In this document: positions 15,323 to 23,137 of the stretch, piece after piece
Numbering within the stretch: position 1 is the stretch's first letter
Layout of the letters: each line of letters begins with the position of its first letter
Source of the DNA: Candidatus Heimdallarchaeota archaeon
Lineage (GTDB): Archaea > Asgardarchaeota > Heimdallarchaeia > JABLTI01
DNA: 23,137 nucleotides
Assembly: GCA_030614005.1 (NCBI GenBank)
Contig: JAUWKS010000052.1
Span: forward strand, 1-23,137
Direction: 5' to 3'
Notes under the pieces: model-generated
Told to the model about the DNA's origin: nothing
What the model saw: the letters and a program-made list of their open reading frames with translations, nothing else
Databases searched by the model: none
Position numbers and translations under genes: made by a program

Positions 15323-17167
15323 GTGTCTAATGAAAAAGAACAAAATAATGAAGAAATTTTCGAGGACAATCATTTAGGTGAAGATACAAAAGAGCAATCC
15401 CAAGATGAACATCCTAATGAAAATGAAACCAAAAATGAAATTTCTTGTTCAAATTGTGGAACACTAAATCCGAAGTCAAATCTTTTTTGTAAAAACTGCG
15501 GATCTCCTTTTGTTCAGAAGGTTATTTGCCAACAGTGCAGTTCAGAAATGCCTGTTTATAATTCCTTTTGTTCAAAATGTGGTGGAATCCTAAAACAAAA
15601 TATACCACAAATTCAACAGACACCAGGTACAACACACATACCTCCTCATCCAAGCCAACAACAGATTTTTGATCCACAAAGATACTATGTGTCACCTCCT
15701 TCACCAGGAGAAATGAATGCCCAAGAACAAATACGGTTAGCACGTTATCAAACCTTTAACATAGTAGGTTCAGTTGCAGGATTTCTAATGATTTTTGCGG
15801 GAATTGTTGGTTTGATTGTCTTTATAATAGTGATGGCTTTCTCACCATCTGTTATAAATGAAATATTACTACCAGAAGATAGAGCCTATTATTATGGATC
15901 ACTGGTTGCGATGTTTATCCCTTTGATAATCGGTGTAACAATAGCAGGTATATCGTTGATAATTTATCGGCCTGAAGGAAATGCTTGGAAAGGATTTTAT
16001 TATACTTTGAGGTATCTATTCGTTGGATTTTCAGCTGTTTTAGCTATTTTAATCGTACTCAGTATTGGTTCATGGATATTTTATAACCCCTCAACACCTA
16101 TAAGTGGTTCAATACCATTTTGGTTGTTTGTAATGATTGAAATACCAATTGTTAACTTTCCATTGGTTGCTTTAGTTGTAATAATAATAATGGTATTTCT
16201 ACTTGGTGTTGTTTCTATGGTTATTCCAACATTGATAAGAATAATCAAAAAATATCAAAAAAACAATCAAATTTCAGAAGAAATATCTTTTGATGATAAT
16301 TCAGGCATAGAACCGATTGTTCTCGAATTAGATAAGGAGAAGAAAATTACTGAAGAATCTGATGTTAAATTATCTTTATTAGAAACGAGAAAAGGAGTTT
16401 TGCCAAGTATATTTTATCTTCTAAAAAACAATCCAATAATTGGTTCAATTGAACTATTAGGTGCTTCCTATTTAGTATCAATAATTCTAATTCTTATAAT
16501 GACTCCTTTTATCAATCAAAATACTTCAGGTGGGTCAACACCGGTTGAAGCACCAGATCCTTTTATTACTCTGTTCTCATTGGCTTGGGCAGGTGTTTTT
16601 GAGGAAATTAGTTTCCGTTTGCTAATTATTGGAATACCAATGATTTTCGTTATGCTTACTCGATATTTAATGCAACAACAAAAAAGTAGTATAGAAACTA
16701 TGGAACGAATACCTGCTGACCGAATGAAGGTATTAGATGATACTGAAAAAATAAAGGATTGGCAAATTCTATTTGCAATTAGAGGCAAATATAAGAAAAT
16801 TAGTTACCCAGAATGGACACTTATAATCATTTCATCGACTTTATTTGGATTTGCACATTGGGAGAAATGGACTGGTAGTTGGGGAGCTTGGAAGATCGTT
16901 CAAGCAGGAGTTGCAGGTCTATTTCTAAGTTATGCTTTTGTAAAATACGGTATTGAATCGGCAATATTTATTCATGTAAGCAATAATGTTCTTATTGGTT
17001 TAGCTGTTTTTTCAGGAACAGTAGGTGCTAATTGGATAGCAGGTATCTCAAGCTTTCTTGTTTCTTGTTTGTTTGCTGTTGGTATATTTAAAATCATTAG
17101 TTTTGTAATAAACTTCGCTCTGACATTATACTTTAGGAAAGGTGATAAAAAGAGCCTAAGTTATTAG
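15323..17167 (+). CDS. Double-zinc-ribbon plus CPBP (Abi / type II CAAX-like) intramembrane glutamic protease (GTG start)
   Basis: CSNC/CKNC and CQQC/CSKC ribbons, Pro/Gln linker, several TMs, then CPBP motifs FEEISFR, FGFAH, AIFIHVSNN. Confidence 0.85.
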   Translation: MSNEKEQNNEEIFEDNHLGEDTKEQSQDEHPNENETKNEISCSNCGTLNPKSNLFCKNCGSPFVQKVICQQCSSEMPVYNSFCSKCGGILKQNIPQIQQTPGTTHIPPHPSQQQIFDPQRYYVSPPSPGEMNAQEQIRLARYQTFNIVGSVAGFLMIFAGIVGLIVFIIVMAFSPSVINEILLPEDRAYYYGSLVAMFIPLIIGVTIAGISLIIYRPEGNAWKGFYYTLRYLFVGFSAVLAILIVLSIGSWIFYNPSTPISGSIPFWLFVMIEIPIVNFPLVALVVIIIMVFLLGVVSMVIPTLIRIIKKYQKNNQISEEISFDDNSGIEPIVLELDKEKKITEESDVKLSLLETRKGVLPSIFYLLKNNPIIGSIELLGASYLVSIILILIMTPFINQNTSGGSTPVEAPDPFITLFSLAWAGVFEEISFRLLIIGIPMIFVMLTRYLMQQQKSSIETMERIPADRMKVLDDTEKIKDWQILFAIRGKYKKISYPEWTLIIISSTLFGFAHWEKWTGSWGAWKIVQAGVAGLFLSYAFVKYGIESAIFIHVSNNVLIGLAVFSGTVGANWIAGISSFLVSCLFAVGIFKIISFVINFALTLYFRKGDKKSLSY

Positions 17168-17207: not shown

Positions 17208-17711
17208 TTGAATAAATTATCCACTGAACCTCAAAAAGAAAAATATGCTCATATAATTGGCATCGGAAATTTAACACGCTTAGATGATGGAGTTGCAATA
17301 CGAATAATCGAGCAACTAAGGAAAAAGAATATCCCATCCAATGTGAAGGTTACCGATCTTGGTACTGGAGGAATTGATATTATTTTAGCTTTAGATGGTT
17401 GGGAGAAGGGGATAATTATTGATGCTGTAGATTTGGATTATTTACATCCAGGAGCAATTGTTGAATATCGTGTTAAGGACGAGAATATACCAGAAATTAA
17501 AGGGCTAAGTTCAACTCATGGGTTTGATGCTGTAACTGCACTAAAATTAGCTTTCTCTTTACAAGAATATGATTTACCATCTGAGATACGAATAATTGGC
17601 ATACAAGTTAAAAACCTAGAAGGATTAGGAACAGATTTATCTTCAGAGGTTGAATCTGCAATACCCAAAGTAATTCAGCGAATATCAGAATTATTACAAA
17701 TTAAATTTTAG
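17208..17711 (+). CDS. Hydrogenase maturation protease (HyaD/HycI family, peptidase A31) (TTG start)
   Basis: IIGIGNLTRLDDGVA, DLGTGG, IIIDAV, STHGF, IIGIQ...GTDLSSEV. Confidence 0.88.
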   Translation: MNKLSTEPQKEKYAHIIGIGNLTRLDDGVAIRIIEQLRKKNIPSNVKVTDLGTGGIDIILALDGWEKGIIIDAVDLDYLHPGAIVEYRVKDENIPEIKGLSSTHGFDAVTALKLAFSLQEYDLPSEIRIIGIQVKNLEGLGTDLSSEVESAIPKVIQRISELLQIKF

Positions 17712-17730: not shown

Positions 17731-18252
17731 TTATTTTGGAATTTTATCAAAGGATAAACGAGCGATTTCGTTGAAAACGAGGTTTACTCCTAAACCATTT
17801 GAAGCAGAGGTTTCAACATAGCGTATTGCATTGTATTGTTTTATTGTTTCTGCAATTACATCTTCATCAAGGAGTTGGTCTCTGGGGAGATCGCTTTTTC
17901 CGCCAACTAGAATAATGGATGTGTTAGAATTTTTATCAACAAAACCATACCATGTTTCTAATCCTTTGACAGAAAGTGCTCTTGTTAAATCGAACATTAA
18001 AATAGCTACTAGTGCTCCTCGAAAATAATTATCGAAAATACCCATCTGTTTGAATTGTTCTTGACCACCGCAATCCCATACCGAAAGTGAAATCTCTCTT
18101 TCTTGGTAGCTCATTTGGTGAATATGAAACCCAACACCGATGGTAAGCTTTGTCGTATCAATAAACTCACCTGTAAGGTATCTTTGAATAAGGGTTGTTT
18201 TTCCAACTCCTCCATCGCCACCAAAAACGACTTTTGCTATGATTTTGCTCAA
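17731..18252 (-). CDS. Rab-like small GTPase (TTG start)
   Basis: G1 GDGGVGKT, G2/RabF1 TIGVGF, G3 WDCGGQEQF, RabF4 YFRGA, RabF5 LMFDLT, G4 variant GGKSD, G5 ETSAS. Confidence 0.9.
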   Translation of the reverse strand: MSKIIAKVVFGGDGGVGKTTLIQRYLTGEFIDTTKLTIGVGFHIHQMSYQEREISLSVWDCGGQEQFKQMGIFDNYFRGALVAILMFDLTRALSVKGLETWYGFVDKNSNTSIILVGGKSDLPRDQLLDEDVIAETIKQYNAIRYVETSASNGLGVNLVFNEIARLSFDKIPK

Positions 18253-18413: not shown

Positions 18414-19217
18414 TTAGTGGATTTTTTCTATTGAAACATTCAATCTATCAAGTATTTTTGACATTTCGGCAATTTCAGTAACGGAGATAACTTTTAGTTT
18501 ATTTCTAAATACACTTGAGTTTAGCTCAGAAGCACTCTTGTATATTTGTCTTCTACGCCATACAGTAGGATCAGGGTGATAGAAGAGAATGGAAAGAGTA
18601 CTTTTGTTTTTATCGGCAACTAAGAAAACATCACCGGCTGGAATCTTTTTACCAATTAATTCTTTAGGTTGTCCATCTTCTAAGAGAGTGAATATTCTTG
18701 GAAGTTTTCCTGAAAAGAGCATGCCCATTTTCTTTGAAAGATCTTGGAGGTTGGCAAATGTTAAATCTTTTTCAGAAGTGATATCTCGAACAATAACTGA
18801 GAAATAGGGTTTAATAAGACCGTAAGCATCAAGAATCTCTCGAGTATAATCTTCTTTAAAGAGTAAAAAGAGAATACACTTTCTTCCATATTCTAAAATT
18901 CTATCATCAGTTGACGCTTCTGCTTCGACATCAAAAGTAATTGCCACTGCACGTAAACTAGGTTCACCCGGAACTGGGAGAGGACCAAATGATTTTTTGT
19001 CATCCATAGTATCAAACATTTGCTTTTTCTTCTCTTCCATAGTCTTTCCTGAGGAACCTTCATCAAGACCTACAATTGTCATACCTTCTACTGCTAATGT
19101 GAGTGTTTGTTCATCAGTTAGTGGAGTATCATTGTATGGGACCGCAGGGCCTGTATCCTCAAAGGTCACAAAAACAATTCCAAGCAAATGCTCCTTTTGT
19201 GATTCAAATCCAATCAT
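18414..19217 (-). CDS. Putative uDENN/longin-like domain fused to a C-terminal gelsolin-like domain
   Basis: aa 11-168: GIVFVTFEDTGP resembles the uDENN/NPRL2-type 'F....GP' opening, and the predicted order is bb-a-bbb-aa. aa 173-260: RIF...GDVFLVAD...WRRRQI...ASEL...KVISVTE...ILDRL follows gelsolin-repeat spacing. Alignment by eye only. Confidence 0.55.
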   Translation of the reverse strand: MIGFESQKEHLLGIVFVTFEDTGPAVPYNDTPLTDEQTLTLAVEGMTIVGLDEGSSGKTMEEKKKQMFDTMDDKKSFGPLPVPGEPSLRAVAITFDVEAEASTDDRILEYGRKCILFLLFKEDYTREILDAYGLIKPYFSVIVRDITSEKDLTFANLQDLSKKMGMLFSGKLPRIFTLLEDGQPKELIGKKIPAGDVFLVADKNKSTLSILFYHPDPTVWRRRQIYKSASELNSSVFRNKLKVISVTEIAEMSKILDRLNVSIEKIH

Positions 19218-19312: not shown

Positions 19313-20293
19313 CTAAACGGATATTATTTCATCAATATTTTTACTTTCTTCAATAAGGTTCTCAATAGCAATTCTTCCTTCTTCGCCTTCTGTGAGGAAA
19401 ATATCCAAAACCATTTCAGCTATTTGTTTTGCTTTTCCAATAGCTCCACCACGTTCCACAAAAAGACAACAAATCTTTTGGTTTCTGGAGACAAGAACCA
19501 TCGAATAATCCCCGACAGTCACAACATCCAAGAAACTGGAATCTTTAAAGAGTGTTCGGGTCATTGAATTTAACGCAGAGAGCAAACCAGTGATAAGAAC
19601 AGCATCTTGAGTATCATCCATAATATTAGAGAATTGAGCATCAAAATCAAGCAAACCATTAACGTCATAAATAAGCACTCTATGAATAGTGACATATTCA
19701 TGATAACCGTCGTAGTGCATAAGTTTTGAAATAAACCAATCGAATCCACGATATATGCCTTCTCCAGTCAAAATAGTGCAGATTTCGAAATGAAAGGAAC
19801 GGGGATCAGTGGGAGAGGAAATTTTTGCTAAATCGAAATAACTCAAAACTTTGCTAAGATTAACTTTATTTTCTGGGCTTTTTTTATTCACTAAGGTAAG
19901 TAAGGGAACATTAGAAGGTATTTTTTCTATTATTCTATGGAAAGGTTCAACAGATTTTCTAAGAGATTCATCGGATTCTCCGTTTAAAACATAGACAATG
20001 CCATCTGCAATTGAAAGAAAATAATCAATTACCTTTTCATCGTTTAAAATCTCTTTTCCAATATCGATGAGTTTAAACCACTCTTGACCATAAGAGATGT
20101 CAATCCAATTGAGAACTGTATCAGGAAAGACTTTGTCTCTGTTTGATGAAAGCAGATAATAAAGAGTAGTTGTTTTTCCGGAACCTTGTTCTCCAATAAG
20201 TAGCACCCAAGGAATTTTATGGTTCTCTTTACTCAAGTAGTTGATAAAGGATTCAATTGCTTTTTTTGGTGCTTTCATATTTAGAACATCCAT
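19313..20293 (-). CDS. Degenerate Arf-like GTPase domain fused to a C-terminal longin-like domain
   Basis: G1 GEQGSGKTT intact; G3 IDIGKE, G4 NKKS and G5 CTI degenerate; Arf-type TGEGIYRGFDWF. C-terminal IHRVLIYD-GLL...DAVLITGLLSAL...LDVVTVGDY longin pattern. Confidence 0.75.
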   Translation of the reverse strand: MDVLNMKAPKKAIESFINYLSKENHKIPWVLLIGEQGSGKTTTLYYLLSSNRDKVFPDTVLNWIDISYGQEWFKLIDIGKEILNDEKVIDYFLSIADGIVYVLNGESDESLRKSVEPFHRIIEKIPSNVPLLTLVNKKSPENKVNLSKVLSYFDLAKISSPTDPRSFHFEICTILTGEGIYRGFDWFISKLMHYDGYHEYVTIHRVLIYDVNGLLDFDAQFSNIMDDTQDAVLITGLLSALNSMTRTLFKDSSFLDVVTVGDYSMVLVSRNQKICCLFVERGGAIGKAKQIAEMVLDIFLTEGEEGRIAIENLIEESKNIDEIISV

Positions 20294-20436: not shown

Positions 20437-21396
20437 CTAAATAGAATCCAATGGGAAATAATTAGAGATAACTTCTTGAAGTGAAATACTTAAACCTTTA
20501 AGATATTGCATTTCAATTGCTTCAAAAATTCTGCTGGAAATAGTTAAAACTCTACTGACAGGATCATTAACGTCGATCAACATGCCCATAACAAAGAGCT
20601 TATTTTTGGTAATCACAAGTTGATAATCTTTCATAATCTCAAGAACAGTGACAGCTTCGTCATAATCTCTCATTTGCTTAGCGAATCGTTCAGTTTCTCT
20701 AATAGATTCACGATAGGCTGTAGCAACATTTGCTTGTTGCGTAGGACTGCCAAAAATACATTGATCTAATTCTTTGCCATTAGAATCAAAGGCAACAGCT
20801 GAAAATATTTTAACATGCCAAGTGGGAATAGCTTGATCTTTGGTACCAATATCAACTAACCAATCCCAAGCAGGAAACAAACCTTCACCTGTAAGAGCAG
20901 AACAACGAAACATGTTAAATGGACGATCAAGACGAATCATTTGTTGAAGATCTAAAGCTTCCATAACTTCTACAGAAGTAGCAGCATCCTCTTTGTCAGA
21001 CTTATTAGCTAAGAAAAGAACAGGTGCATTAGGATCAGTGTTTTCTAAAGTCTCATAGAAAACCTCTTTGGCTAAATTAAATCTTTTTTGATCAGCAGCA
21101 TCAACAACAAAAACAATCGTTTGAGCTTTAGTAACAAACTTCTTCCAAAGGGTCTTGCGAATCGGAGCGTGCCCACCTAAATCCCATACGACAAACTCTA
21201 GTGTTCTATATCTATATACTTCAATATTTACTCCGAATGTTGGTTTTGACAGAGTGTATTCTGATCTTAGTATTCTTCTCACTATTGTTGTTTTTCCTGC
21301 TGCATCTAAGCCTATTATTGCTACATGTTGTTTTGATGATGCATCATCACCTGTTTTTTTCTTGTCGGCGCTGATCAATCTTCGAAGGAAACTCAC
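20437..21396 (-). CDS. Arf/Sar1-like small GTPase fused to a C-terminal longin-like domain (GTG start)
   Basis: N-terminal amphipathic MSFLRRLIS, GLDAAGKTT, PTFGVNIE, WDLGGH, LWKKF, FVVDAAD..RF, NKSD, CSALTGEGL...DWL. About 125-aa C-terminal bb-a-bbb-aa domain. GGAG upstream. Confidence 0.88.
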   Translation of the reverse strand: MSFLRRLISADKKKTGDDASSKQHVAIIGLDAAGKTTIVRRILRSEYTLSKPTFGVNIEVYRYRTLEFVVWDLGGHAPIRKTLWKKFVTKAQTIVFVVDAADQKRFNLAKEVFYETLENTDPNAPVLFLANKSDKEDAATSVEVMEALDLQQMIRLDRPFNMFRCSALTGEGLFPAWDWLVDIGTKDQAIPTWHVKIFSAVAFDSNGKELDQCIFGSPTQQANVATAYRESIRETERFAKQMRDYDEAVTVLEIMKDYQLVITKNKLFVMGMLIDVNDPVSRVLTISSRIFEAIEMQYLKGLSISLQEVISNYFPLDSI

Positions 21397-21927: not shown

Positions 21928-23137
21928 ATGAAGAAACCAAATATCCTCTTATTTCAGAACAGACAAATCGCTATTTCATACTTTGCCATCCTTTTTTCTT
22001 CCATTGGTTTAGGAATTGGTCGATTTTTATATCCTCTTCGATTCCTTGAATTGGGTGGAAACGAAGCATTGGTTTCTCTTGCAACAGTTGCTTTTTCCAT
22101 TGGTCAATTATTGGGAATATTTGTTCTTTCAAAACTTCTTGATAAAACAGGTTTTGAGTTTCTCATAGGGATAAGTTCATGGGTTCTTGCCATAGCTTTA
22201 CCTGTTATTCCTTGGTATCCAATAATGTTCTTTTCTAAATTCTTTGAGGGTCTTGGTTTTGGTATTTTAACGATTGCTGTTTTGACTCTCTGTTCTGCTG
22301 AAGCAAAAGAGTGCATTTCCGAGGGTATTGGAACCTTGTTAGGAGCGGTATTTTTAGGAACAGCTATCGGGCAAGGATTAGGTGGTTTAATGAAAACTTA
22401 TCTATTCGAAGTGTGGAATTTTTCAGGCAAGTTTTCAGCATTACAAATGAGCTTTTTGTTTGCGATTGCTATTTCATTCATTCCCATTTTCATTAGTTTA
22501 TACCAATCAATTAAAGCAAGAAAGATACTTGATCGAATGGATAAAATTTCACTAAGTCACATTCACTTTAAAGATTTAAAGAAACTCTTTCTTTTCCCTT
22601 TCTTTGTTTTCATGCTTATACTTTACAGTCTGTATGATTTATCACATGGTTTATACACACCAAATTTGCTTGTTATGTTTACCAATCACGGTTTCACTGA
22701 AGCAGAAACAGGTATTATTTTCTTCCTAGGAGATGCCGTTTGGGGTATTTCTCAAATCCTCACAGGAAAATTAGCTGATAGATTTGGTAATTGGCTTCCA
22801 ATAATACTCAGTATTATATTAAAAGGCACATTAGTTATTCTGTATCCACTTGCTCCTGGAATTTATATATTAGGAGCCGCCTTCGTTATTGTTGGTGTTG
22901 CTGAAGCGCTTATGGAACCAGCTCGAAATTGTGAAGTGTTAACAATTGAAGATCGCTTAATAATAGATGAGAAATATGCTTCTACAGAACACAAACACAA
23001 GCATATAAATTTCAGTTTTACTCGAGGACAAGGAATGCGGTTCGGCATTCACGCTCATTTCCATAATCATGGAATAAACAAAGGGTTGATTTTAGGTATC
23101 TTCCAAACAGCTGGTATTATCTCTTTTGGATTAGGTG
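21928..23137 (+). CDS. MFS transporter with a His-rich loop (3' end runs off the window)
   Basis: Open frame from ATG 21928 to the window end (403 codons). Repeated TM segments, KFFEGLGFG (TM4-like), TGKLADRFG (motif A, second half), AEALMEP, and loop HKHKH...HAHFHNH. Confidence 0.85.
   Translation, partial: MKKPNILLFQNRQIAISYFAILFSSIGLGIGRFLYPLRFLELGGNEALVSLATVAFSIGQLLGIFVLSKLLDKTGFEFLIGISSWVLAIALPVIPWYPIMFFSKFFEGLGFGILTIAVLTLCSAEAKECISEGIGTLLGAVFLGTAIGQGLGGLMKTYLFEVWNFSGKFSALQMSFLFAIAISFIPIFISLYQSIKARKILDRMDKISLSHIHFKDLKKLFLFPFFVFMLILYSLYDLSHGLYTPNLLVMFTNHGFTEAETGIIFFLGDAVWGISQILTGKLADRFGNWLPIILSIILKGTLVILYPLAPGIYILGAAFVIVGVAEALMEPARNCEVLTIEDRLIIDEKYASTEHKHKHINFSFTRGQGMRFGIHAHFHNHGINKGLILGIFQTAGIISFGLG

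What the first reader, a model, noticed from the sequence alone, without database searches (positions are those of the whole stretch)
19313..20293. Tandem pseudo-GTPase paralog: possible active/inactive heterodimer through longin domains
Seen: same two-domain layout as 20437-21396 and a shared TGEG...DW motif. The P-loop is intact (GEQGSGKT), but G3 is DIGKE (no DxxG Gly, no Gln/His), G4 is NKKS (no Asp) and G5 is CTI. The frame is open for 326 aa, so this is not a decayed pseudogene. Established: the G4 Asp gives guanine specificity, longin domains often heterodimerise, and Rag GTPases heterodimerise through C-terminal roadblock domains. Inference: a duplicated partner that became a scaffold, GEF/GAP-like subunit, or binder of another nucleotide such as ATP.
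Basis: partly seen in the sequence, partly recalled or inferred. Interest (0 to 1): 0.68.

Follow-up and report, generated by a model that had tools for sequence, protein, structure and literature searches.

The report
Conserved pseudo-GTPase partner of archaeal Arf/Rag-like GTPase
A Heimdall-type Asgard archaeon keeps, under strong selection and always directly after a normal Arf/Rag-like GTPase gene, a sister gene whose GTP-sensing "switch" motifs are lost but whose phosphate-binding loop is intact, so it is probably the non-switching half of a Rag-like pair, although the pairing itself is only weakly supported here.

Summary
The ORF at 19313-20293 (-) encodes a two-domain paralog of the gene at 20437-21396: an Arf-fold G domain plus a C-terminal alpha/beta domain. 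G1 is intact (GEQGSGKT); G3 is DIGKE, G4 is NKKS and G5 is CTI.

It is not a decaying copy. I found 45 orthologs in two families of one Asgard class. All keep the P-loop, and none has DxxG or a catalytic Gln/His. dN/dS is about 0.09.

In every locus examined (12 in the window's own family, 24 in a second family) the gene order is the same: canonical GTPase (A), then this protein (B), then a conserved protein of 255-270 aa. In the second family the three genes abut.

The loss of the G4 Asp is not a family trait. NKxD is present in 11 of 21 close orthologs and in 24 of 24 distant ones, which weakens the idea that B binds ATP or another nucleotide.

The closest full-length structural matches are Rag/Gtr GTPases and an Asgard RagA-like protein. 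"Longin" is therefore not established; the C-terminal domain is Rag-type roadblock/longin-like.

The predicted A-B complex gave only weak support (0.48 against 0.00 for the best control).

Rag-like operon pairs in Asgard archaea are already published (Tran et al. 2024); the conserved dead-switch subunit appears to be new. First readers of this scan noted the same pair in other genomes.

The parts
19313..20293 (-). Subunit B, the finding: a divergent Arf/Rag-like two-domain protein (putative pseudo-GTPase). 326 aa as listed; the probable true start is 20278 (321 aa).
   Evidence: ORF. Pfam Arf 55.3 bits. 34 orthologs at 54-92% identity. dN/dS 0.085. AF2 model with pLDDT 74.8.
19709..20218 (-). 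G domain of B (residues 26-195), Arf fold.
20171..20194 (-). G1 / P-loop, GEQGSGKT, intact.
   Evidence: Translation. GxxxSGK[ST] is kept in 45 of 45 B-family sequences.
20051..20065 (-). Degenerate G3 / switch II, DIGKE. The DxxG Gly is replaced by Lys and the catalytic Gln/His by Glu.
   Evidence: Translation. 0 of 45 B sequences have DxxG. The own family has D[IL]G[KQRN][ED]; the second family has E[AV]DEE.
19877..19888 (-). G4, NKKS. Asn-Lys are kept and the Asp is lost in this copy.
   Evidence: Translation. The fourth position varies in the own family (D in 11 of 21) and is D in 24 of 24 of the second family.
19772..19780 (-). G5 position, CTI instead of CSA.
19340..19696 (-). C-terminal alpha/beta domain of B (residues 200-318; order beta-beta-alpha-beta-beta-beta-alpha). 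It is the most constrained part of the protein and the presumed dimerisation platform.
   Evidence: Secondary structure of the model. Homologous to the C-terminal domain of A, 92% probability. dN/dS 0.012-0.043. Full-length Foldseek alignments to Rag/Gtr and LokiRagO.
20437..21396 (-). Subunit A: canonical Arf/Rag-like GTPase with the same two-domain layout (GLDAAGKT, PTFGVN, DLGGH, NKSD, CSA).
   Evidence: Pfam Arf 145.8 bits. All five motifs are canonical in 34 of 34 orthologs. It lies directly upstream of B in every locus examined.
18414..19217 (-). Third conserved gene of the module (267 aa, no Pfam family), directly downstream of B.
   Evidence: Mean column identity 87% over 17 orthologs. 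dN/dS 0.062. Full-length homologs follow B in the second family. The fold is not resolved here (pLDDT 40.9).
17731..18252 (-). Rab/Ras-like small GTPase (173 aa), the fourth gene of the cluster. It was seen only in the window's own family.
   Evidence: Pfam Ras 124.1 bits. Present after the 267-aa gene in L001-L005 and the Logan contig. In the two second-family loci read that far (L017, L018) a NYN-domain gene or a ThiI gene stands there instead.

Best explanation
B is a conserved pseudo-GTPase: an Arf-fold G domain fused to a Rag-type roadblock/longin-like C-terminal domain. It descends from an ancient duplication of a canonical two-domain GTPase. It has kept the phosphate-binding P-loop and the Asn-Lys of G4. 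It has lost the elements that sense the gamma-phosphate and catalyse hydrolysis: the switch-I Thr in register, the DxxG Gly and the catalytic Gln/His.

Shown here: the degeneracy is a family trait under purifying selection. Selection is strongest on the C-terminal domain. B is always encoded between a canonical partner A and a third conserved protein.

Inferred: B binds a (guanine) nucleotide as a structural cofactor but does not cycle. It pairs with A through the two homologous C-terminal domains, as RagA/RagC and Gtr1/Gtr2 do. That would give an asymmetric dimer in which only A switches. The dimer would be the platform for the third protein and, in this lineage, for the Rab-like GTPase.
For: Paralogy and architecture:
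- BLASTP E 5e-17 over both domains.
- C-terminal domains homologous, 92% probability, E 5.6e-7.
- The only PDB hits that run the full length (300-326 alignment columns) are LokiRagO 8yl2, Gtr1-Gtr2 4arz/3r7w and RagA/C 6s6a.

Conserved degeneracy:
- Among representatives of the wider two-domain family, nearly all have canonical G2-G5 motifs. Only this family and its sister P0069 do not.
- Census of 45 B sequences: P-loop in 45 of 45, DxxG in 0 of 45, an acidic residue at the catalytic position throughout. All 34 A sequences are canonical.

Selection:
- dN/dS at dS 0.57 is 0.085 for B, 0.059 for A, 0.062 for the 267-aa gene and 0.084 for the Rab-like gene.
- By domain, in pairs with dS below 1: B G domain 0.085-0.173 against A G domain 0.006-0.071; B C-terminal domain 0.012-0.043 against A 0.028-0.070.

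Co-inheritance:
- The order A, B, third gene is seen in 12 loci of the own family and 24 of the second family (the third gene is cut off in L048). Genes abut or overlap in the second family.
- B-type genes were found in 8 of 10 and 22 of 28 genomes of these two families. None was found at E<=1e-40 in the 28 other families sampled.
- Tree: the B clade and the A clade each have 99% support and are not sisters.

Complex prediction, verdict 'weak support':
- ipSAE median 0.48 (runs 0.50, 0.48, 0.00); best of 3 controls 0.00.
- The mark was reached by 58 of 80 solved complexes and 2 of 110 mismatched pairs.
- At 0.60 or under it was reached by only 7 of those 80 solved complexes and by both mismatches that passed.
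- The runs agree in at least 0% of contacts; the partner's pLDDT is at least 65.
- Rag/Gtr dimers are solved, so the pass may reflect likeness rather than binding.

Precedent: Tran et al. 2024 (PMC10933270) report an operon pair of Rag-like GTPases in Lokiarchaeon MKD1, predicted to heterodimerise through roadblock domains.
Against: - No biochemical data exist. Loss of hydrolysis and of switching is inferred from motifs only.
- The complex score is weak, one of three runs gave 0.00, and no interface was returned.
- The solved Asgard relative LokiRagO is a homotetramer by its PDB title, so homo-oligomers are a real alternative.
- In the window the genes are 95-160 nt apart rather than abutting.
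- An A-clade relative (P0072) stands alone without B, so A-type proteins do not need a B.
- In the own family the G4 Asp is unconstrained, which also fits loss of base-specific or of any nucleotide binding.
- The C-terminal domain gave no significant sequence match to roadblock or longin families.
Confidence: 0.5

Rival explanations
1. B does not pair with A. It works as a homodimer, or mainly with the downstream 267-aa protein. Its position next to A is only the trace of an ancient tandem duplication kept in one operon.
For: - The complex prediction gave only weak support, with one run at 0.00.
- The PDB title of LokiRagO describes a homotetramer of one Rag-like chain.
- The 267-aa gene is as tightly linked to B as A is and is the most conserved gene of the cluster (87% mean column identity).
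- A-like P0072 occurs without B.
Against: - The order A-B is kept in all 36 loci across two families. B evolves about 1.6 times faster than A by tree path length.
- The genes abut in the second family, which is usual for subunits made in equal amounts.
- The two C-terminal domains are homologous.
- The controls of the complex prediction scored 0.00.
Confidence: 0.2
2. B is still a working GTPase that hydrolyses GTP by a non-canonical route. For example, the conserved acidic residue at the catalytic position, or a residue supplied in trans by A or the 267-aa protein, could replace Gln/His.
For: - The P-loop is invariant and NK of G4 is kept (45 of 45). NKxD is complete in the second family.
- A Thr/Ser one residue after the usual switch-I position is present in 20 of 21 own-family sequences.
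- The G domain is still under purifying selection (dN/dS 0.085-0.173).
Against: - The DxxG Gly, whose backbone NH binds the gamma-phosphate in all switching GTPases (established knowledge), is absent in 45 of 45. In the second family even the Asp is replaced (EADEE).
- The G domain of B is clearly less constrained than that of A in the same genome pairs.
Confidence: 0.13
3. B binds no nucleotide at all and is a pure scaffold. This would be the nucleotide-free class of pseudo-GTPase, like CENP-M or the p190RhoGAP pseudo-GTPase domains (examples recalled from the literature).
For: - In the own family the G4 Asp and G5 are unconstrained.
- Acidic residues replace the gamma-phosphate-binding part of switch II.
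- The constraint has moved to the C-terminal domain.
Against: - GxxxSGK[ST] is invariant over 45 sequences from two families, and Asn-Lys of G4 is kept in nearly all.
- In nucleotide-free pseudo-GTPases the P-loop usually decays (established knowledge, not tested here).
Confidence: 0.1
4. B has changed base specificity (ATP, XTP or another nucleotide), as the first reader proposed from the NKKS motif.
For: - NKKS in this copy.
- NKxN in 5 of 21 own-family sequences. D-to-N at this position is the classical change to xanthine specificity (established knowledge).
Against: The fourth G4 residue is D, N, S, A, E or Q within one genus-to-family range, and D in 24 of 24 of the second family. That is the pattern of relaxed constraint, not of a new specificity.
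Confidence: 0.05
5. A decaying pseudogene or a chance ORF.
For: None beyond the degenerate motifs.
Against: - The frame is open in all 45 orthologs.
- dN/dS is 0.085 overall, and 0.012-0.043 in the C-terminal domain.
- Synteny is conserved.
Confidence: 0.01

Closest known systems
Eukaryotic Rag/Gtr GTPase heterodimers (RagA/B-RagC/D, Gtr1-Gtr2)
   Same: Two-domain chains: a G domain followed by a C-terminal alpha/beta (roadblock) domain. They are the best full-length fold matches. Two paralogous chains are made together and, in Rags, are joined through the C-terminal domains.
   Different: Both Rag subunits are working GTPases that hold opposite nucleotide states; here one chain has lost its switch motifs. 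By sequence, A and B are Arf-like: Pfam Arf is the best family, Gtr1_RagA gives no hit for B, and the G-domain fold matches are Arl/Arf. Heterodimerisation is only weakly supported. No Ragulator or TOR context is known.
Asgard Rag-like / Arf-like GTPases fused to roadblock or longin domains (Tran et al. 2024, PMC10933270; LokiRagO, PDB 8yl2)
   Same: Same kind of protein in the same superphylum. Tran et al. report 26 GTPase-RB/longin fusions in MKD1 and one operon pair predicted to heterodimerise through roadblock domains. 8yl2 is the top Foldseek hit.
   Different: Those reports describe GTP-binding proteins; 8yl2 was solved with GTP and as a homotetramer by its title. A conserved partner with dead switch motifs, and the fixed order A, B, third gene in Heimdall-type genomes, was not found in the papers searched.
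Asgard ArfR / AArf GTPases (HodArfR1, GerdArfR1; Vargova et al., bioRxiv 10.1101/2024.02.28.582541; PMC11914678)
   Different: The ArfRs studied are single-domain proteins of about 180 aa that switch canonically. B has an added C-terminal domain and no working switch II motif.
Pseudo-GTPases and active/inactive paralog pairs of eukaryotes (Rnd and RhoH types that bind but do not hydrolyse GTP; CENP-M; Arl13B as an atypical Arf-like GEF for Arl3; alpha/beta-tubulin). Recalled from the literature, not tested here.
   Same: GTPase fold kept under selection after loss of catalytic or switch motifs, acting beside an active relative. Arl13B-Arl3 (5di3) is among the fold hits.
   Different: There is no homology beyond the common fold. 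All known examples are eukaryotic. No paper in the library searched holds both 'pseudoGTPase' and 'Asgard'.

Membership tests
Arf family (Pfam PF00025) / Arf-like G-domain fold | Scores above the curated Pfam cut-off | tested here: met
   55.3 bits against a cut-off of 22.3, residues 26-190.
Arf family (Pfam PF00025) / Arf-like G-domain fold | Arf/Arl three-dimensional fold | tested here: met
Arf family (Pfam PF00025) / Arf-like G-domain fold | Arf-type switch II, W-D-x-G-G-Q | tested here: not met
   LIDIGKE in B against VWDLGGH in A.
Canonical switching small GTPase (Ras superfamily G1-G5) | G1 P-loop, GxxxxGK[ST] | tested here: met
   GEQGSGKT; kept in 45 of 45 family members.
Canonical switching small GTPase (Ras superfamily G1-G5) | G2 switch-I Thr in register | tested here: not met
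   PDT aligned to PTF. The own family has D/E at the Thr column with a Thr one residue later; the second family has P-x-Q.
Canonical switching small GTPase (Ras superfamily G1-G5) | G3 DxxG and a catalytic Gln/His | tested here: not met
   DIGKE. 0 of 45 have DxxG, and an acidic residue sits at the catalytic position.
Canonical switching small GTPase (Ras superfamily G1-G5) | G4 [NT]KxD | tested here: not met
   NKKS in this copy. NKxD is present in 11 of 21 own-family and 24 of 24 second-family orthologs, so the loss is not a family trait.
Canonical switching small GTPase (Ras superfamily G1-G5) | GTP binding and hydrolysis | not testable with these tools
   Needs purified protein.
Rag/Gtr family | Pfam Gtr1_RagA (PF04670) match | tested here: not met
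   No hit for B at E<=0.1. Only sub-cut-off or precomputed 'weak' hits in related proteins: the Rab-like neighbour at 20.9 bits, the second-family A L017_A at 19.7 bits (cut-off 22), and database marks for other A-type genes.
Rag/Gtr family | G domain followed by a C-terminal roadblock-type domain in one chain | tested here: met
   Model topology beta-beta-alpha-beta-beta-beta-alpha after the G domain. Foldseek alignments of 302-326 columns to 8yl2, 4arz, 3r7w, 6s6a and 8fw5, E 7.5e-12 to 5e-10; the rmsd of about 15-16 A reflects a different relative orientation of the two domains.
Rag/Gtr family | Obligate heterodimer of two paralogs through the C-terminal domains | tested here: inconclusive
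   Complex prediction 'weak support': 0.48 against a best control of 0.00, and no interface reported. Strict co-linearity with A in 36 loci.
Roadblock/LC7 (PF03259) or Longin (PF13774 and relatives), for the C-terminal domain | Sequence-profile match | tested here: inconclusive
   Pfam on ten C-terminal domains found nothing significant (Intu_longin_2 at E 0.11 only). hhalign against the genome's ten Robl_LC7 proteins gave 1.4% probability. ESM Atlas feature hits (roadblock/LAMTOR2, Fuz_longin_1) scored below 0.9 and are leads only.
Pseudo-GTPase (GTPase fold with conserved loss of motifs for hydrolysis and/or binding) | GTPase fold kept, catalytic or switch motifs lost, gene under purifying selection | tested here: met
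Pseudo-GTPase (GTPase fold with conserved loss of motifs for hydrolysis and/or binding) | Shown lack of GTP hydrolysis | not testable with these tools
   A biochemical assay is needed.

The most novel reading that the evidence does not exclude
The trio A (switching), B (dead switch) and the 255-270-aa third protein is a Heimdall-lineage counterpart, or even a forerunner, of the eukaryotic Rag heterodimer with its longin-type regulator. The asymmetry between the two Rag-like subunits would then have arisen in archaea by silencing one G domain. The dimer would regulate, or be regulated by, the third protein and hand a signal to the Rab-like GTPase.
Probability: 0.15. Interest if true: 0.8.

Novelty: new variant of a known kind. 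Interest (0 to 1): 0.55.

Why it matters
[quoted passage not shown] Paired Rag-like GTPases have been predicted in Asgard archaea. A pair in which one subunit has been a fixed, non-switching partner across two archaeal families would show that 'active plus dead paralog' complexes, a common eukaryotic design, already existed in archaea. It also gives a small, defined three-gene module (four genes in this lineage) that can be expressed and tested directly.

Tried and rejected
Tried without a usable result:
- AF2 of the 267-aa neighbour gave pLDDT 40.9, so I made no fold search.
- Its profile found nothing in PDB sequences (best E 0.77) and nothing in Pfam.
- hhalign of it against the A and B C-terminal domains and the roadblock set gave nothing.
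- A search for longer, fused relatives found none, which is weak evidence. I therefore could not verify the earlier scan note that it is a longin-gelsolin fusion and is fused to GTPases in relatives.
- Pfam on ten isolated C-terminal domains gave nothing significant.
- hhalign against the genome's own Robl_LC7 proteins gave 1.4% and 4.9% probability.
- A PF13774 search of the own genome rang nowhere, controls included, so it says nothing.
- ESM Atlas feature hits for the C-terminal domain scored at most 0.87 and are leads only.
- pdb_via re-ranked only G-domain matches and does not test the C-terminal domain.
- No RNA holder was listed for the cluster. This says nothing about expression.
- dN/dS between distant orthologs was unusable because dS is saturated; only pairs with dS below 1 are quoted.
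- Literature: no paper holds both 'pseudoGTPase' and 'Asgard'. The paper behind PDB 8yl2 was not found in the library.

Considered and rejected:
- Pseudogene.
- A recent tandem duplicate of A.
- A settled new nucleotide specificity.
Full report
**What is at the coordinates.** The minus strand of the window carries four consecutive genes:
- 21396..20437, 319 aa, here called A.
- 20293..19313, 326 aa, the finding, here called B.
- 19217..18414, 267 aa.
- 18252..17731, 173 aa.

Pfam places A and B in the Arf family, at 145.8 and 55.3 bits against a cut-off of 22.3. The fourth gene falls in the Ras/Rab family. The 267-aa protein matches nothing.

A and B align over both domains: 23% identity over 275 residues, E 5e-17. 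A has GLDAAGKT, PTFGVN, DLGGH, NKSD and CSA. Most orthologs start at the internal Met6, so the true start is probably 20278.

**B is a conserved family.** A word-indexed search found 34 proteins at 54-92% identity, nearly all from MAGs that the sources label Heimdallarchaeota or Asgard. In their alignment the P-loop, D77, N136-K137, C172 and the TGxG..DW junction are invariant, and the C-terminal half is the best conserved part.

For the one comparison of the whole cluster with unsaturated synonymous divergence (window against L004, dS about 0.57), dN/dS is:

| Gene | dN/dS |
|---|---|
| B | 0.085 |
| A | 0.059 |
| 267-aa gene | 0.062 |
| Rab-like gene | 0.084 |

Split by domain, in six same-genus pairs with dS below 1:

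| Domain | B | A |
|---|---|---|
| G domain | 0.085-0.173 | 0.006-0.071 |
| C-terminal domain | 0.012-0.043 | 0.028-0.070 |

Both domains of B are therefore under purifying selection. Constraint is relaxed on its G domain relative to A, and is as tight or tighter on its C-terminal domain.

**Which motif losses are family traits.** An exhaustive profile search of 1.84 billion representatives gave many two-domain relatives. Aligned, nearly all have canonical G2, G3, G4 and G5 motifs. Only B's family and one other representative, P0069, are degenerate.

P0069 led to a second lineage. In L006, L007, L010 and then in genomes of a second family of the same class, a canonical A-type gene is followed directly by a B-type gene and then by a clear homolog of the 267-aa protein.

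A census of 21 own-family B, 24 second-family B and 34 A sequences gives:

| Motif | B, own family (21) | B, second family (24) | A (34) |
|---|---|---|---|
| P-loop | intact in 21 | intact in 24 | canonical |
| G3 | D[IL]G[KQRN][ED] in 20 of 21 (one DIDAE); no DxxG | E[AV]DEE (one EAGEE); no DxxG | DxGGH |
| Catalytic position | acidic | acidic | His |
| Switch-I Thr | out of register | missing at the aligned position | canonical |
| G4 | NKxD in 11 | NKxD in 24 | canonical |

Loss of the gamma-phosphate sensor is the ancient, shared feature. This weakens the 'ATP or other nucleotide' idea and sharpens the 'non-switching subunit' idea.

**History and distribution.** On a maximum-likelihood tree of 61 two-domain proteins, B's family is monophyletic (99) and sister to P0069 (99). 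A's family, with P0074 and P0072, forms a separate clade (99). The two clades are not sisters; they sit in an unresolved group with other canonical clades. B is therefore not a recent copy of its neighbour. The A/B split predates the divergence of the two archaeal families, and B's path lengths are about 1.6 times those of A.

Among 300 genomes sampled across the phylum, B-type genes at E<=1e-40 were found in 8 of 10 genomes of the window's own family (plus its own genome) and in 22 of 28 genomes of the second family. None was found in the other 28 families sampled. The threshold would miss more divergent forms.

**Gene neighbourhood.** The order A, B, third gene holds in every locus I read:
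- Own family (12 places including the window): the window, L001-L005, one Logan contig and five same-genus genomes.
- Second family (24 places): L006, L010, L017, L018 and 20 further genomes. In L048 the contig ends before the third gene.

In the second family the three reading frames abut or overlap by a few bases. In the window the spacers are 95-160 nt. The Rab-like fourth gene was seen only in the own family. In the two second-family loci read that far, a NYN-domain gene or a ThiI gene stands there instead. One A-clade relative, P0072, stands alone without a B. B was never seen without A.

**Structure.** The AF2 model of B (pLDDT 74.8) has an Arf-type G domain. After a short low-confidence linker comes a beta-beta-alpha-beta-beta-beta-alpha domain spanning residues 203-316.

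In Foldseek the only hits that run through both domains (302-326 columns) are LokiRagO (8yl2, 'RagA-like small GTPase from Asgard Lokiarchaeota', a homotetramer by its title), Gtr1-Gtr2 and RagA/RagC. Their E-values are 7.5e-12 to 5e-10, and the high rmsd reflects a different relative orientation of the two domains.

The two C-terminal domains are homologous to each other (92% probability). Neither Pfam nor a profile comparison with the genome's ten Robl_LC7 proteins classifies them. I therefore call the domain Rag-type roadblock/longin-like.

**Does B pair with A?** One complex prediction of full-length A plus B, each with its own alignment, returned 'weak support':
- ipSAE was 0.50, 0.48 and 0.00 in three runs (median 0.48); the best of three controls scored 0.00.
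- By the tool's calibration the mark was reached by 58 of 80 solved complexes and 2 of 110 mismatched pairs.
- At 0.60 or under it was reached by only 7 of those 80 solved complexes and by both mismatches that passed.
- The runs agree in at least 0% of contacts, the partner's pLDDT is at least 65, and no interface was reported.

Rag/Gtr dimers are solved, so the pass may reflect likeness. Together with strict co-linearity, abutting genes in the second family, the homologous C-terminal domains and the published precedent, I put heterodimerisation at somewhat better than even. The precedent is an operon pair in Lokiarchaeon MKD1, predicted to dimerise through roadblock domains like Gtr1/Gtr2 (Tran et al. 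2024, PMC10933270).

**Mechanism proposed.**
- Shown: B has an Arf fold, an intact P-loop and a conserved loss of DxxG and of the catalytic residue. It is under purifying selection that is strongest on the C-terminal domain, and it has a fixed position between A and the third gene.
- From established knowledge of small GTPases: the DxxG glycine and the switch-I threonine hold the gamma-phosphate and drive the conformational switch. Without them a G domain cannot report GTP against GDP.
- Inferred: B still binds a nucleotide, most likely a guanine nucleotide because NKxD survives in the second family, but as a fixed cofactor. B pairs with A through the C-terminal domains. Only A cycles. The asymmetric dimer is the docking platform for the highly conserved third protein and, in this lineage, acts together with the Rab-like GTPase.

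The rivals are scored in the rival explanations above: no pairing with A, non-canonical catalysis, a nucleotide-free scaffold, changed base specificity, and a pseudogene.

**Comparison with what is known.**
- The kind is known. Asgard archaea encode many Arf/Rag-like GTPases fused to roadblock or longin domains, and one Loki pair was predicted to heterodimerise.
- Asgard ArfRs with canonical switching have been solved (8oum and 8ouk).
- What I did not find in the papers searched is a conserved partner with a dead switch, or this fixed three-gene module.
- By sequence, A and B are Arf-like rather than members of Pfam Gtr1_RagA. 'Works like a Rag pair' is therefore a proposal, not a family assignment.

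Hence my rating: a new variant of a known kind.

**Earlier notes of this scan.** First readers noted the same active/pseudo pair in other genomes (e1-5497060, e1-5497072, e1-5518582). My ortholog census agrees with their motif readings. An earlier follow-up called the 267-aa protein a longin-gelsolin fusion that is fused to GTPases in relatives (e1-5383170). My fold failed and my search for fused forms found none, so I could not verify this and do not rely on it.

**Verdict.** This is a real, conserved, probably non-switching paralog that most likely serves as the fixed half of a Rag-like pair. Direct evidence for pairing and for the nucleotide state is still missing.

Noticed in passing
window 15323-17167 (+): The 614-aa membrane protein beside the cluster joins an N-terminal double zinc ribbon to a C-terminal Rce1-like (CAAX-protease/CPBP) domain: PF02517, 43.8 bits when the C-terminal part is scanned alone. 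A DZR protein of similar size sits in the same place in L001, L003, L005 and the Logan contig. None of the three GTPases ends in a CAAX box.
   Followed up: partly
window 17208-17711 (+): A HycI-type hydrogenase maturation protease (77.4 bits) lies between the DZR/Rce1-like gene and the Rab-like gene. It is kept there in L001, L003, L004 and L005.
   Followed up: no
window 20437-21396 (-) and orthologs: Partner A has His rather than Gln at the catalytic position (DxGGH) in 34 of 34 orthologs from both families, and begins with a conserved MSF... N-terminus.
   Followed up: partly
window 20278-20293 (-): The annotated ATG at 20293 adds five residues that most orthologs lack. They begin at the Met encoded at 20278.
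   Followed up: partly
P0077, P0098, P0134, P0117 (relatives): Some relatives in the wider family carry two or three Arf-like G domains in one chain of 478-819 aa. This is another way of pairing G domains. I did not examine it further.
   Followed up: no
L047 1201-2261 (genome G204): In one second-family genome the A gene is split into two overlapping reading frames, by a frameshift or an assembly error. B and the third gene are intact there.
   Followed up: no
L008 5001-5960: P0072, a member of the A clade (44% identical to A), stands alone between an ABC transporter operon and an AsnC-type regulator, with no B or third gene.
   Followed up: no
L002 7413-7793: In the most distant own-family locus the Rab-like gene is called at only 126 aa, against 173-199 aa elsewhere. 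It may be truncated or mis-started.
   Followed up: no
L001 2542-3666, L003 2592-3722, L005 1564-2667: A gene of about 370 aa with no Pfam family lies upstream of A on the same strand in several own-family loci. It is absent from the window, where an MFS transporter gene (21928-23136, +) follows a 530-nt spacer.
   Followed up: no
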